Of a DNA stretch of 12,182 bases, positions 3,695-11,466 are shown one piece after another (positions within the stretch are counted from its first letter, which is position 1; each line of letters opens with the position of its first letter). Source of the DNA: a virus (taxonomy: Duplodnaviria > Heunggongvirae > Uroviricota > Caudoviricetes). The notes under the pieces are model-generated. The model made no database searches, had not been told where the DNA came from, and saw nothing but the letters and a program-made list of their open reading frames with translations. The stretch lies in the IMG/VR virus record IMGVR_UViG_2526164690_000021; one strand, given 5' to 3'. The position numbers and the translations under genes were made by a program.

Positions 3695-3880
3695 GGGCGT
3701 AGTGGCCCATTAAAAATATTGCAAAGACCAACTATTGTTGAACTGGATTAAACCAGTAATTCTCTATTGCTCTTATTGTTACCATCGGATGATTGCCGGG
3801 GGTTATTTTAAGTTCGGGAGGAAAAGGCTCTCCATCAGCAGCCATCATTGAGTATGTGAAATCCGCCGACGCAGTCCCTT

Positions 3881-4270
3881 TCATGATAATTCCGAATTTT
3901 TCAAGTAATGAGAGCAGTTCCGGTAATCCTGTGTCATCTGAATAACTTTCCTCATAGAAAGAAGCGATTGCCGCAGGAGATGACAGTTCTCGCTCTGCAA
4001 TTTTTTTGTAGTTTTCCAGAATTCTTTTTTTGAATACTTTTCCTCGACATGAAAACCCATCACCGAGGCAATCCGCTTTGCAGTTTCTTCAGTATTCTGG
4101 TTGTTTGTTACCGAAACAGAGTACAATCCGGTAAACGCATCGCGCACATTACGAGCCATATTATCAATGTATTTCTTCGTTGCAGATTCTAATTCAACTT
4201 CGTTCAGACGTTGGTGAAGTGCATGTGCTGCAATTTCCTGGATTTCTTTTAGTAAATCTTTAAATTCCAT
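3881..4270 (-). CDS. Hypothetical protein (129 aa as read); probable -1 frameshift in an A7 tract, repaired frame would end at 3732 (about 178 aa)
   Basis: ATG 4270-4268 with GGAG about 7 nt upstream. Tail of the ORF is composition-poor, whereas the alternative frame downstream of the T7 runs (4011-4017, 4025-4031 on plus strand) reads as clean protein (...GLPELLSLLEKFGIIMKGTASADF...NYWFNPVQQ*) to TAG at 3732-3734. Confidence 0.55.
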   Translation of the reverse strand: MEFKDLLKEIQEIAAHALHQRLNEVELESATKKYIDNMARNVRDAFTGLYSVSVTNNQNTEETAKRIASVMGFHVEEKYSKKEFWKTTKKLQSENCHLLRQSLLSMRKVIQMTQDYRNCSHYLKNSELS

Positions 4271-4281
4271 CTTTAACTCCG

Positions 4282-4410
4282 TTAGTCGTTAGATTTTGCC
4301 GAACTGGAAAGCGCCTGTTTAAACTCACTGAAGCTGAGAGCTTCCTCGCCTTCGGCAAGGCCTTCGAAGTATTCTTCGTAAGCCTTTTCCATGATTGTGT
4401 CGAAATCCAT
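4282..4410 (-). CDS. YdaG-like small protein (42 aa, MDFDTIMEKAYEEYFEGLAEGEEALSFSEFKQALSSSAKSND)
   Basis: ATG 4410-4408 with GGTGA upstream; below the 60-aa track cutoff; 1-nt gap to the upstream gene's stop; size and position match ydaG of Rac. Confidence 0.55.
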   Translation of the reverse strand: MDFDTIMEKAYEEYFEGLAEGEEALSFSEFKQALSSSAKSND

Positions 4411-4411
4411 A

Positions 4412-4567
4412 TCACTCACCTGAGTTTCTTTCCAGCCAGCGACGGGCACCATTTTCGGTTTTAAACGTTTTGCTTTTGGTATACGTCATCGCGGTGAATG
4501 TACCGTCCTGGTTGGGAAACACGCCGTACACCAGAGATTCGTTGTTGCCAAGATCGATAGTATCCAT
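4412..4567 (-). CDS. YdaF-like small protein (51 aa, MDTIDLGNNESLVYGVFPNQDGTFTAMTYTKSKTF...)
   Basis: ATG 4567-4565 with GAGG 5 nt upstream; the track ORF 4412..4606 starts at an upstream TTG; first gene downstream of the PL-like promoter. Confidence 0.6.
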   Translation of the reverse strand: MDTIDLGNNESLVYGVFPNQDGTFTAMTYTKSKTFKTENGARRWLERNSGE

Positions 4568-4748
4568 GTTGACCTCATTTCCCCTTAACGCCGGGTAGCG
4601 GAACAAAAACCTGCTGCATAGTTATTAAAGTTGAACCCTGCCGTCATGTTCATACGCCTCGGGCTGGCTACTTACCCCCTGACCACTGCTTGGTAACTCG
4701 AAGTATTGCCCGGCGTTCTGTGGGGCGGGGTGGGTGGTTGGTGTATGT

Positions 4749-8375: not shown

Positions 8376-9122
8376 ATGAAAAACATTGCGGCAGCCGGGG
8401 TTCTTGAACGTATTCGCAGACTTGCACCACAGGCGTCGGTTCCACCGTACCGGACGGTGGAGGAGTGGCGGGAATGGCAACTTGCTGAAGGACGAAAACG
8501 CAGCGAGGAGATTAACCGCCAGAATCACCAGTTGCGGGTGGAAAAAATCCTGAATCGTTCGGGCATCCAGCCTCTGCACAGCAAATGCTCGTTTGCGAAT
8601 TATCAGGTGCAGAACGACGGGCAAAAATACGCGCTGAGCCAGGCCAAATCCATAGCTGACGAACTGATGACCGGGTGCACGAATTTTGTGTTCAGCGGTA
8701 AAACCGGCACCGGGAAAAATCACCTTGCAGCGGCGATGGGTAACCGGCTGATGGCGAAGGGGCGCAGCGTGATTATCGTCACCGTGTCTGATGTCATGAG
8801 CGTGTTGCATGACAGCTACGACAACGGCAAATCCGGGGAAAAATTTTTACAGGAGCTTTGCAGTGTTGATTTGCTGGTCCTGGATGAAATAGGCGTTCAG
8901 CGGGAGACGAAAAACGAGCAGGTGGTATTACACCAGATAATTGATCGCCGGACAGCATCACTGTGCAGTGTCGGGATGTTAACAAACCTGAATCATGCCG
9001 CAATGAGTACACTTCTTGGTGAGAGGATTATGGACCGCATGACCATGAACGGTGGTCGATGGGTGACGTTTAACTGGGATAGCTGGTGTCCAAATGTCAG
9101 CAATATGAGGGTTGTGAAGTAA
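8376..9122 (+). CDS. DnaC-family replicative helicase loader (P analog, YdaV-like; 248 aa)
   Basis: Walker A GKTGTGKNHLA, Walker B LLVLDEIG; lies immediately downstream of the initiator, as in the lambda O-P pair. Confidence 0.9.
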   Translation: MKNIAAAGVLERIRRLAPQASVPPYRTVEEWREWQLAEGRKRSEEINRQNHQLRVEKILNRSGIQPLHSKCSFANYQVQNDGQKYALSQAKSIADELMTGCTNFVFSGKTGTGKNHLAAAMGNRLMAKGRSVIIVTVSDVMSVLHDSYDNGKSGEKFLQELCSVDLLVLDEIGVQRETKNEQVVLHQIIDRRTASLCSVGMLTNLNHAAMSTLLGERIMDRMTMNGGRWVTFNWDSWCPNVSNMRVVK

Positions 9123-9143
9123 TTTTGTCCGGAGGAAATTTTA

Positions 9144-9914
9144 ATGGAAACCGTATCTGACGCACTGAAAGCACTGAAAAAAGCCTCTTCACATGTGGTG
9201 GCAGCTCGCCTTGGAATCAGTCGTGAAGAGGCTGTCAACGAGCTGTGGGAACTCAAAATAAATGGCGTCGTTGATAAAACTGGTCACACCTGGTTTCTGG
9301 CTGGCGAAGGTGAATCCCGGGTAACCGAAGAGCGGCCAGTAAAATCTGAAGCACAGGATATGCTGACCGGGGAGGTCGAACAAAAAGTTACCGCAGACAT
9401 GATGATTGAGTTTATCGGTCAGGATGGGGCTAAAACGTGTGAGGAACTGGCGGGTAAGTTCGGTGTCAGTACTCGCAAGGTTGCTTCCACGCTGGCGGTG
9501 GTAACCGCAACGGGGCGGCTGGCACGCGTTAATCAGAACGGTAAATTTCGTTACTGCATGCCGGGCGATAATTTACCAGCAGAGCCGAAAGCCGCGCTGG
9601 TAACGGAAAGTGATGGTAAGGCCTTTCCTCAGCCAGCAGGTGCTGCGTTACCAGTCCGGGAAGCCGCAACACAGGAAGAAATTAAAACAGAAACTGTGGC
9701 GGACATTGTGCAGCCGTTGCCATCGTTTACCGAAACGCAAGCAGATGAGCTGATTTTTCCGTCCCTTCGCAGGGCAAACCTGGCGCTGCGCAGGGCGAAA
9801 AGTGATGTTCAGAAGTGGGAGCGAGTCTGCGCCGCGCTGCGGGAGCTGAACAAGCACCGGGATATTGTTCGACAGATTACTGATTCTTCCCGCCGTGTTG
9901 TATCGGAAAAGTGA
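9144..9914 (+). CDS. Hypothetical protein with two tandem winged-helix-like modules (256 aa)
   Basis: ATG 9144 with GGAGG (9131-9135); internal duplication VVAARLGISREEAVNELWELKINGVVDKTGHTWFL and CEELAGKFGVSTRKVASTLAVVTATGRLARVNQNGKFRYCM. Confidence 0.7.
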   Translation: METVSDALKALKKASSHVVAARLGISREEAVNELWELKINGVVDKTGHTWFLAGEGESRVTEERPVKSEAQDMLTGEVEQKVTADMMIEFIGQDGAKTCEELAGKFGVSTRKVASTLAVVTATGRLARVNQNGKFRYCMPGDNLPAEPKAALVTESDGKAFPQPAGAALPVREAATQEEIKTETVADIVQPLPSFTETQADELIFPSLRRANLALRRAKSDVQKWERVCAALRELNKHRDIVRQITDSSRRVVSEK

Positions 9915-9929
9915 TTGCCGGAGGCGCTT

Positions 9930-10343
9930 ATGGCAAAAGTATTTACACAGGAAGAGCGGGAAAAAATTAAAGGGCAGGTTGTTGAGCTAGTACGCCGGAG
10001 TGGGCGCGAGACGTTACGGCAACTGGAAGCCAAGACAGGTGCGACAAGATATCTGATGAGCGTTCTTGCCAGAGAGCTGGTTGCCAGTGGCGATGTATAC
10101 AACTCTGGTTACGGGTTATTCCCATCTGAACAGGCTCGTAAGGACTGGCAAAACGCCCGCAAAAAACTATCGAGGGCAAAACTGAAGAAACCGGTTGTGG
10201 TTGATCCTGACCTTATCTGGTCATTACCAGACGGAGAAATACGCCGCTATGACAGGCAATTGAACATAATTTGTAGTGAGTGCCGTAACAGTGAAGTGAT
10301 GCAGCGAGTTTTGATATTTTACACAGGAGTAATGATGGAATAG
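9930..10343 (+). CDS. Hypothetical protein (138 aa) with an N-terminal HTH-like segment
   Basis: ATG 9930 with GGAGG (9920-9924) 5 nt upstream; the track ORF begins at an upstream TTG 9915; last gene before the GC drop. Confidence 0.65.
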   Translation: MAKVFTQEEREKIKGQVVELVRRSGRETLRQLEAKTGATRYLMSVLARELVASGDVYNSGYGLFPSEQARKDWQNARKKLSRAKLKKPVVVDPDLIWSLPDGEIRRYDRQLNIICSECRNSEVMQRVLIFYTGVMME

Positions 10344-10693
10344 TGAAAATAACATGAAACCTTTGGATTCTGGTGTTTCAGTGGATGGGAAAAGAGCAGA
10401 TACATAGAAAATGAATAGCAATAATTCACAGTCTGGATGTTGTTTGTATGCTTATAAAATGATCCTAGTATGCATTGCCGGAGTTGAATCAGCTCCAATG
10501 AAGAAACTGAGAGGAGTATTTAGAAGATAGCTAAATGGATGTAATTATTAGTATCTAAAAATAGTATTTTTGAAATGGGTCTAAGAACACAACAATGTAC
10601 AAATGAGAAGTTATCTTTTAATATGTTCAAAGACCCATTAGGATTGATATCAGTTATGTTAGCTAGATTGATAAAGTGATTACATATTTTCTG

Positions 10694-11466
10694 TTATATG
10701 CTGAAATGAATAATGCTATTCCAGAGTGCAGCAGAGAAAGTCTCCTGATGATTGAGCTCTGGAAATTGTACAATAGAAAAATTACTGTATTTTTCTGTCA
10801 AAATATTTCTCAAAACAGATTCCGCTTTGATGGCTTCAGGATATAAAGATGCGGAGTAATCAAGGCTAAGATTTCCGTTAAGCAAGCATATACTTTTAGT
10901 GTGCTTTGATTCTGATATATCATCTTTAATTATCTTGATGATTCTTTCATTCTGCCATAGAAGTGATGGTGCAGATATATAATAATAGTTAAAGCATGAA
11001 TTATTTTTTAAGCAATCAAGCACAAAAATAGCACCTAGCGAGTGCCCCCATATACCGATTCTGGAACTGTTCGGAGCAATAGTACTAACCCATGGCATGA
11101 TCTGAGTTAGTAATAATTCTCGGAAAGACTGGCTTCCTCCACCAGTAAAGTAGATCCATGCTGGTTTAGAGTTATCAACAATAGCATTTTCACCATCAGG
11201 AGTATAATCGTAAGCACGGCGATGAATGCTAAGGTTATTCCAAGATTCATAACCAAGTGTAACTAACACTGGTGGATTGGGTAGTGCATCAATAACAGGC
11301 AGAATATCAGAAATGTAATTGTTGGCACTATTCCCATCAAGTATATAAAGAGTTGCATTATTTTTTTAATGTTTTTTGGAGTAAAAATACATATTTTATA
11401 TTTGGTGTCATGGTTAATTGAGTTAAATATGCGTGTTTGACAATGAATGTCCATATGTTTAGTCAT
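10694..11466 (-). pseudogene. Alpha/beta-hydrolase esterase, IroE/Fes-type (PF00756-like), disrupted by a -1 frameshift in an A7 tract
   Basis: ATG 11466 frame (MTKHMDIHCQTRIF...CIFTPKNIKK) shifts at T7 11361-11367 into the frame carrying LYILDGNS, AYDYTP, nucleophile elbow GHSLGA and SAPSLLW; A8 would give about 256 aa intact. Low GC (about 30-35%). Confidence 0.7.

What the first reader, a model, noticed from the sequence alone, without database searches (positions are those of the whole stretch)
3732..11466. Four independent -1 frameshifts, all at A/T homopolymers of 6-7 nt
The early-left gene (T7 at 4011-4031), the hypothetical gene after ydaT (A6 at 6565-6570), the replication initiator (A7 at 7819-7825) and the esterase (T7 at 11361-11367) are each restored by adding one base to the run. 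That pattern is typical of homopolymer under-calling, so gene calls here may under-represent intact genes; if real, the prophage is decaying by slippage.
Basis: seen in the sequence. Interest (0 to 1): 0.5.

Follow-up and report, generated by a model that had tools for sequence, protein, structure and literature searches.

The report
Mixed homopolymer artefacts and inherited frameshifts
Two of the four broken prophage genes are sequencing errors of an old draft assembly and the other two are genuine inherited frameshifts shared with many other E. coli genomes, so nothing unusual is happening here.

Summary
The window is contig AIGH01000010.1 of draft assembly GCA_000249835.2 (DEC collection): the early region of an Sp4/CP-933M-like prophage, ending inside an ISVsa5/IS10 copy.

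All four genes are interrupted, and adding one base restores each. They are not one phenomenon.

- **Artefacts.** A7 7819-7825 (replication gene) and T7 11361-11367 (alpha/beta hydrolase) are assembly under-calls. Against the closest complete genome the window has 0 substitutions and five 1-nt deletions, all in A/T runs. 457/458 and 457/459 complete genomes carry the 8-nt run. All seven DEC-project assemblies examined carry A7, whatever their lineage. Two of the three intergenic deletions break otherwise perfect palindromes.
- **Early-left gene.** This frameshift is real and inherited. Intact homologues have an 8-nt run, and 384/386 complete genomes, including Sakai, match the window exactly.
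- **Gene after ydaT.** This frameshift is real and lineage-specific, but it is TT 6584-6585 against TTT in O157. The A6 tract is wild type. 40/452 complete genomes share the window's state.

Verdict: ordinary, low interest. In passing, that gene and the antisense ECs1072-family ORF look like a conserved convergent overlapping pair.

The parts
3732..4270 (-). Early-left gene of unknown function. Its N-terminus matches phrog_1363 and phrog_2151. In the window it is split into a 129-aa product (3881-4270) and an open downstream frame that runs to the ancestral stop at 3732.
   Evidence: Full-length 177-186-aa homologues P0001-P0009 sit at the same syntenic position, after DUF1391 and before dicB.
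4001..4007 (-). True lesion of the early-left gene. The run is T7 on the + strand (A7 in the mRNA), against an 8-nt run in intact homologues. It is a real, inherited allele.
   Evidence: Alignment A1: 'ACTGCAAAAAAAATTGCAGAG' in L003 and L005 against 'ACTACAAAAAAATTGCAGAG' in the window. 384/386 complete genomes are identical to the window over 3960-4050, including Sakai.
4025..4031 (-). It is not the lesion, because it has the same length in intact homologues.
   Evidence: conserved 'TCAAAAAAAGAATTC'; 384/405 exact, and the two non-exact records listed have substitutions without a length change.
4760..4763 (.). Intergenic A4 that is A5 in the references. A private 1-nt under-call that breaks a palindrome.
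   Evidence: The inverted repeat has 21-nt arms with a 7-nt spacer in L001 and is broken to 15 nt at 87% in the window.
5815..5819 (.). Intergenic T5 that is T6 in the references. A private under-call in the operator-like palindrome between the repressor gene (5349-5750, -) and the ydaS-like gene (5858-6130, +).
   Evidence: L001 has perfect 15-nt arms, ACAATAAAAAACTGT / ACAGTTTTTTATTGT; the window has only 10 nt.
6554..7061 (+). Gene after ydaT (phrog_8304, 169 aa when intact). In the window it is frameshifted after codon 10.
   Evidence: 1-169/169, E 2.9e-116. It is an intact 169-aa ORF in Sakai. Homologues of 168-169 aa exist at 50-55% identity. The non-overlapped 5' part shows a coding periodicity of 0.30/0.18/0.45.
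6584..6585 (+). True lesion of that gene: TT against TTT in O157 strains. A real, lineage-specific 1-nt deletion.
   Evidence: Sakai L006 and strain 472 L002 have GCGTTTACG. The window's state is shared with L001 and with 40/452 complete genomes.
6565..6570 (+). This is the wild-type length, not the lesion.
   Evidence: Sakai and L011, which have intact ORFs, also carry GACAAAAAA(T/C)TG (alignment head; one search shows no difference here).
6745..7200 (-). ECs1072-family ORF (151 aa), which RefSeq annotates instead of the + strand gene. It overlaps the 3' 315 nt of that gene and is unaffected by the frameshift.
   Evidence: NF033230, 105 bits against a cut-off of 70. It is open in all diverged homologues. 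Its non-overlapped part shows antisense periodicity.
7279..8369 (+). Replication initiator / DnaD-like helicase loader (363 aa when intact). In the window it is split into 7279-7920 and 7908-8369.
   Evidence: phrog_1701, 1-363.
7819..7825 (+). A7 that is A8 in the references. An assembly under-call.
   Evidence: 457/458 complete genomes have the extra base. All 7 DEC-project loci have A7.
10557..10561 (.). Intergenic A5 that is A6 in the references. A private under-call.
10694..11466 (-). Alpha/beta hydrolase (257 aa when intact). In the window it is split into 11263-11466 and 10694-11269.
   Evidence: phrog_8493, 1-257/257.
11361..11367 (-). T7 that is T8 in the references. An assembly under-call.
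   Evidence: 457/459 complete genomes have the extra base. 5 of 7 DEC-project loci have T7.
11502..12182 (+). End of an ISVsa5 (IS10-type, IS4 family) element. The contig stops inside it.
   Evidence: It is 100% identical over 681 nt to the copy in strain BM28.

Best explanation
The four frameshifts have two different causes.

**(A) Assembly errors.** The window is a contig of a 2012-era draft assembly, GCA_000249835.2 of the DEC collection, whose consensus systematically under-calls long A/T homopolymers by one base. It contains five such errors. Two fall in coding sequence and falsely split the replication-initiator gene (A8 read as A7, 7819-7825) and the alpha/beta-hydrolase gene (T8 read as T7, 11361-11367). 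Three are intergenic. In the real strain both genes are almost certainly intact.

**(B) Real inherited alleles.** The other two frameshifts are genuine. The early-left gene lost one base from an 8-nt run (now T7 at 4001-4007) in the ancestor of the Sp4-like prophages. The phrog_8304 gene after ydaT lost one T from a TTT (now TT at 6584-6585) in a non-O157 sub-lineage. These are ordinary replication-slippage mutations in accessory prophage genes.

**Shown:** the sequence differences, their population frequencies, and the association with the sequencing project.

**Inferred:** that the project's chemistry causes the under-calls (no reads or methods paper were available), and that the two inherited lesions inactivate their genes.
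For: **Source.** L025 (AIGH01000010.1, 12182 nt) is identical to window 2279-12182.

**Error signature.**
- Against the nearest complete genome there are 0 substitutions and 5 single-base deletions, all in A/T runs.
- The hit rate rises with run length: 2/2 of 8-nt runs, 2/24 of 6-nt runs, 1/38 of 5-nt runs, 0/199 of G/C runs.

**Population.**
- Only 1/458 complete genomes share A7 and only 2/459 share T7.
- The intact proteins are on at least 1000 contigs. The truncated ones are on 12-23 and 6 contigs.

**Batch effect.** All 7 DEC-project assemblies, both O157-type and this non-O157 one, have A7. Five of 7 have T7. Each has other private homopolymer deletions, and none has an insertion.

**Internal evidence.** Two of the intergenic deletions each break an otherwise perfect palindrome.

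**Literature.** False deletions in homopolymers that fragment genes are a known assembly error class (PMC12007338).

**Inherited lesions.**
- Early-left gene: exact match in 384/386 complete genomes, including Sakai. Intact homologues differ by 8 against 7 at 4001-4007.
- Gene after ydaT: TT against TTT. The window's state is in 40/452 complete genomes and in the nearest relative. DEC O157-type assemblies keep the intact 185-aa ORF, so that platform did not under-call this site.
Against: - No reads were available, so the five under-calls are inferred from comparison, not observed directly.
- The platform could not be verified because the project paper is not held.
- The same A8 to A7 and T8 to T7 contractions occur sporadically in unrelated assemblies (FORC_044, F6321, L013-L018, L021, L027-L028). 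These tracts could therefore also slip biologically at a low rate.
- 0 of 5 seven-nt runs were hit, so the length dependence rests on few sites.
Confidence: 0.9

Rival explanations
1. All four frameshifts are real. The prophage in this strain is decaying through replication slippage at homopolymers.
For: A/T runs are mutational hot spots, and two of the four lesions are real slippage-type alleles. The A7 and T7 states recur in a few unrelated assemblies.
Against: - Five indels with zero substitutions in 11.5 kb, all of them deletions.
- The A7 state tracks the sequencing project rather than lineage: 7/7 DEC assemblies against 1/458 complete genomes.
- The intergenic deletions break palindromes.
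- At this density a whole genome would carry about 2,000 indels (extrapolated from 5 per 11.5 kb).
Confidence: 0.04
2. All four frameshifts are sequencing errors, and all four genes are intact in the real strain.
For: The assembly demonstrably under-calls homopolymers.
Against: - T7 at 4001-4007 is identical in 384/386 complete genomes from many projects, including Sakai.
- TT at 6584-6585 is in 40 complete genomes, including the closest relative. It is a 2/3-nt run, which this project called correctly (as TTT) in its O157-type assemblies.
Confidence: 0.03
3. The inherited A7 tract of the early-left gene is a recoding site. Either -1 ribosomal frameshifting on A_AAA_AAA or transcriptional slippage yields some full-length protein.
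For: The heptamer is in the correct phase: ACA AAA AAA UUG. A -1 shift gives ...KTTKKIAERE..., exactly the intact sequence. The downstream frame is still open to the ancestral stop. Rescue of frameshifted genes by slippage on A runs is documented (PMC1088944; PMC4256274 and PMC5009743).
Against: - Diverged homologues are single ORFs with an 8-nt run, so the shift is not conserved.
- There is no downstream structure beyond chance, z = -0.40.
- Selection against slippage becomes evident at about 9 nt in many bacterial genomes, which is longer than 7 (PMC1088944).
- All carriers are about 99.9% identical, so an open downstream frame carries no weight.
Confidence: 0.04

Closest known systems
Homopolymer under-calling in draft or long-read assemblies, which fragments genes (for example the error class targeted by Kastor, PMC12007338)
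   Same: The differences are single-base false deletions confined to homopolymers. They rise with run length, split genes that are intact in all close relatives, and are tied to one sequencing project.
   Different: The platform of this assembly could not be confirmed.
Replication-slippage pseudogenes in cryptic lambdoid prophages (Sp4 of Sakai, CP-933M of EDL933)
   Same: The early-left gene (8 to 7 nt) and the phrog_8304 gene (TTT to TT) carry 1-nt deletions that are inherited across many independent genomes, and intact homologues exist elsewhere.
   Different: One of the two lesions is not in a long homopolymer. Loss of function is inferred, not shown.
Programmed -1 frameshifting or transcriptional slippage on A runs (dnaX A_AAA_AAG, IS elements, Citrobacter tssM)
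   Same: An in-phase A_AAA_AAA heptamer at 4001-4007 would produce exactly the ancestral protein.
   Different: There is no conservation of the shift, no stimulatory element, and the run is shorter than those known to slip efficiently.

Membership tests
Sequencing or assembly homopolymer under-call | Differences from the closest high-quality genomes are indels in homopolymers, without accompanying substitutions | tested here: met
   0 substitutions and 5 one-nt deletions, all in A/T runs of 5-8 nt (reference length), over 11,501 nt.
Sequencing or assembly homopolymer under-call | One direction only (deletions), with a rate that rises with run length | tested here: met
   5 of 5 are deletions. 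Hits were 2/2 of 8-nt runs, 0/5 of 7-nt, 2/24 of 6-nt, 1/38 of 5-nt and 0/199 of G/C runs. Other DEC assemblies show deletions only and 0 insertions.
Sequencing or assembly homopolymer under-call | The variant tracks the sequencing project, not phylogeny | tested here: met
   A7 at 7819 is in 7/7 DEC-project loci of two lineages, against 1/458 complete genomes. T7 at 11361 is in 5/7, against 2/459. This is not met for 4001-4007 or 6584-6585.
Sequencing or assembly homopolymer under-call | Read pile-ups show mixed or longer run lengths | not testable with these tools
   No reads are accessible, and the project paper is not held.
Genuine inherited frameshift (prophage pseudogene) | The same allele occurs in many independently sequenced genomes, including the nearest relatives | tested here: met
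   4001-4007: 384/386, including Sakai. 6584-6585: 40/452, including L001. For 7819 and 11361 this is not met.
Genuine inherited frameshift (prophage pseudogene) | Uninterrupted homologues exist that read through the lesion | tested here: met
   P0001-P0009 at 177-186 aa. The Sakai 169-aa ORF and P0127-P0129.
Programmed -1 frameshift or transcriptional slippage | Slippery motif in the correct phase | tested here: met
   ACA AAA AAA UUG at 4001-4007. A -1 shift reproduces the intact sequence.
Programmed -1 frameshift or transcriptional slippage | The frameshift is conserved across diverged homologues | tested here: not met
   Homologues at 61-91% identity are single ORFs with an 8-nt run. The only carriers are near-identical Sp4-type prophages.
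Programmed -1 frameshift or transcriptional slippage | Stimulatory downstream structure | tested here: not met
   The 70 nt downstream fold at -15.9 kcal/mol, z = -0.40.
Phase-variable contingency tract | Frequent run-length polymorphism among close relatives | tested here: not met
   Each tract is nearly monomorphic in complete genomes: 457/458, 457/459 and 384/386.

The most novel reading that the evidence does not exclude
The A7 tract fixed in the early-left gene of Sp4-type prophages (4001-4007) may not be a dead lesion. It could be decoded at low level by -1 ribosomal frameshifting on the in-phase A_AAA_AAA heptamer, or by RNA-polymerase slippage. The prophage would then make both a 129-aa product and the ancestral 179-aa product.
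Probability: 0.04. Interest if true: 0.3.

Novelty: not a real feature. Interest (0 to 1): 0.1.

Why it matters
The value is mainly practical. Gene calls on this contig, and on the other DEC-collection drafts, under-count intact genes. Here the prophage replication gene and a hydrolase are falsely split, so the prophage would wrongly be scored as replication-defective.

It also shows that 'restored by adding a base to the nearest homopolymer' is not enough to locate or classify a frameshift. Comparison with relatives moved two of the four lesions and split the set into artefacts and real alleles.

Tried and rejected
- **Short query failed.** A 71-nt query centred on 3993-4063 gave no match, probably because of low-complexity masking. 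I replaced it with offset queries.
- **Wrong first model.** Alignment with intact homologues showed this was wrong.
- **Wrong first reading of the tract.** I first took the 72-nt alignments around 6565 as A7 alleles. A direct comparison showed the extra base is a T at 6584.
- **No diverged DNA copies.** A distant DNA search for diverged copies of 6540-7280 in complete E. coli genomes found only copies at 99.6% identity or more. I used protein-level homologues instead.
- **Uninformative family scans.** Pfam found nothing above its own cut-off for any protein here (only a sub-threshold Esterase hit on the hydrolase), and NCBIfam gave no family for the + strand gene.
- **Recoding.** No stimulatory structure and no conservation of the shift.
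- **Phase variation.** The tracts are monomorphic in complete genomes.
- **Platform.** The DEC genome announcement could not be read, so the platform is unverified. From memory it was 454-based.
- **IS10 segment.** It shows no under-calls, but it contains no run longer than 5 nt, so it is uninformative.
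Full report
**What the window is.** Bases 1-11501 match Sp4/CP-933M-like lambdoid prophages in hundreds of complete E. coli genomes. The gene order is exonuclease, DUF1482, dicB, the early-left genes, a relE/relB-like pair, repressor, ydaS, ydaT, replication genes, DUF1627, DUF977 and an alpha/beta hydrolase. Bases 11502-12182 are the end of an ISVsa5 (IS10-type) element. They are 100% identical to another copy, and no complete genome has this junction. A look-up of the truncated replication protein returned NCBI contig AIGH01000010.1 of GCA_000249835.2, which is 12182 nt long. Its last 9904 nt are identical to window 2279-12182. The window is therefore that draft contig, from the diarrheagenic E. 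coli (DEC) collection project. The neighbouring accession GCF_000249815.1 is DEC8B (PMC7693793), so this is presumably DEC8C; that strain name is my inference.

**Checking the observation.** The named runs exist. Adding one base to each merges the flanking ORFs into 179, 169 (186 from an upstream GTG), 363 (400 from an upstream ATG) and 257 aa. The merged proteins match full-length families or homologues. So four interrupted genes are really there. The +1 test is not specific on its own, because it also lengthens the repressor ORF at 5363-5368.

**Comparison with the closest complete genome.** Against NZ_CP159875 the window has 0 substitutions and exactly five 1-nt deletions over 11,501 nt, all in A/T runs:

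| Window | Reference | Location |
|---|---|---|
| A4 4760-4763 | A5 | intergenic |
| T5 5815-5819 | T6 | intergenic |
| A7 7819-7825 | A8 | replication gene |
| A5 10557-10561 | A6 | intergenic |
| T7 11361-11367 | T8 | alpha/beta hydrolase |

Both 8-nt runs of the region are hit, along with 2 of 24 six-nt runs, 1 of 38 five-nt runs and none of 199 G/C runs. Two of the intergenic deletions each break a palindrome that is uninterrupted in the reference. One has 21-nt arms. The other has perfect 15-nt arms, ACAATAAAAAACTGT / ACAGTTTTTTATTGT, and lies between the repressor and ydaS. This is evidence internal to the sequence that the window's runs are one base short.

**Population frequencies and the batch effect.**
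- Short queries across the tracts show that only 1 of 458 complete genomes shares A7 at 7819 and only 2 of 459 share T7 at 11361. All the others have the longer run and intact genes.
- The intact 363-aa and 257-aa proteins occur on at least 1000 contigs each. The truncated fragments occur on 12-23 and 6 contigs.
- Seven of the ten contigs shown that carry the truncated replication protein come from the same DEC project (GCA_000249315 to GCA_000249835).
- All seven have A8 read as A7, and five have T8 read as T7. Each has further private deletions in other homopolymers, and none has an insertion.
- These assemblies include O157-type strains as well as this non-O157 strain. The variant therefore follows the sequencing project, not descent.

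This is the signature of systematic homopolymer under-calling, a known cause of fragmented genes (PMC12007338). I could not read the project paper to confirm the platform.

**The early-left gene.** Full-length homologues exist at 61-91% identity and 177-186 aa, in the same syntenic position. The DNA alignment shows that the 7-nt run at 4025-4031 is conserved in intact copies. The lesion is the next run, 4001-4007, which has 8 nt in intact copies and 7 in the window. The 91-nt segment spanning both runs is identical in 384 of 386 complete genomes that contain it, including Sakai. This is a real allele fixed in the Sp4-type lineage, not an error of this assembly. The mRNA reads ACA AAA AAA UUG, an in-phase A_AAA_AAA heptamer whose -1 shift would recreate the ancestral protein. 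However, the shift is not conserved in diverged homologues, there is no downstream structure beyond chance (z = -0.40), and 7 nt is below the length at which slippage is usually appreciable (PMC1088944). Other frameshift variants at both runs occur in public data (P0011, P0017, P0018), so the runs are generally unstable or error-prone.

**The gene after ydaT.** With one base added, the + strand ORF matches phrog_8304 end to end. In O157 genomes it is an intact 169-aa ORF. A direct comparison shows that the window's A6 tract equals the O157 tract. The missing base is a T: TT 6584-6585 against TTT. The window's state is shared with its nearest complete relative and with 40 of 452 complete genomes. 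The DEC O157-type drafts have the intact ORF. It is therefore a genuine lineage-specific deletion in a 3-nt run, not a long-homopolymer event.

**Verdict.** There is no burst of slippage in this prophage. Interest is low. The practical lesson is that gene calls on this and sister drafts under-represent intact genes.

**Seen in passing.** RefSeq does not annotate the + strand gene after ydaT. It annotates a 151-aa antisense ORF of the ECs1072 family (NF033230).
- In homologues down to about 50% identity from Salmonella and other sources, both ORFs stay open with conserved lengths of 168-169 and 151-153 aa.
- Codon-position variability shows sense periodicity in the sense-only part (0.30/0.18/0.45).
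- It shows antisense periodicity in the antisense-only part. There the most variable position, 0.49, is the antisense third position.
- It shows no periodicity in the 315-nt overlap (0.32/0.34/0.34).
- Both translations are equally conserved in the overlap.
- An open antisense frame is unlikely under synonymous resampling, about 0.0006-0.075 per sequence.

This looks like a genuine convergent overlapping gene pair, but it rests on only three deep lineages. I found no description of this pair in the two literature searches I ran.

Noticed in passing
window 6554-7061 (+) and 6745-7200 (-): The phrog_8304 gene and the antisense ECs1072-family ORF overlap convergently by 315 nt. Both stay open with conserved lengths in homologues down to about 50% identity. 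Each shows coding periodicity in its non-overlapped part, and the overlap shows none. They may be a genuine long antisense overlapping gene pair. RefSeq annotates only the minus-strand ORF.
   Followed up: partly
window 4749-4796 and 5787-5824: Two palindromes share the half-site ACAAT(T/A)AAAAACTGT. The second lies between the repressor gene and the ydaS-like gene, and both are perfect only after the under-called base is restored. They are probably operator sites of this prophage's immunity region.
   Followed up: partly
window 11502-12182: The contig ends inside an ISVsa5/IS10 copy that begins 35 nt beyond the hydrolase start codon. No complete E. coli genome has this junction. Either the insertion is private to this strain, or a repeat collapsed at the contig end. 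I cannot tell which.
   Followed up: partly
window 4767-4770: The run is T4 here and in the nearest non-O157 genome but T5 in O157 Sakai and strain 472. This is a genuine homopolymer length polymorphism between lineages, inside the first palindrome region.
   Followed up: no
L013-L018, L021, L027, L028; complete genomes FORC_044 and F6321: The same A8 to A7 and T8 to T7 contractions recur in unrelated public assemblies, some on diverged backgrounds. These two 8-nt coding runs are hot spots, either for sequencing error or for real slippage.
   Followed up: partly
L019-L026 (other DEC-project drafts): The relE-like toxin, the repressor, ydaT and DUF977 genes are variously missing or shortened in these drafts' gene calls. 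That suggests many more gene-fragmenting errors across the project.
   Followed up: no
L013, at L002 coordinates 9261-9284 (window about 7757-7780): A 24-nt in-frame deletion lies within the GAACAGGAGCAG (QEQE) repeat of the replication gene in one assembly. This is repeat-length variation in the linker of the initiator.
   Followed up: no
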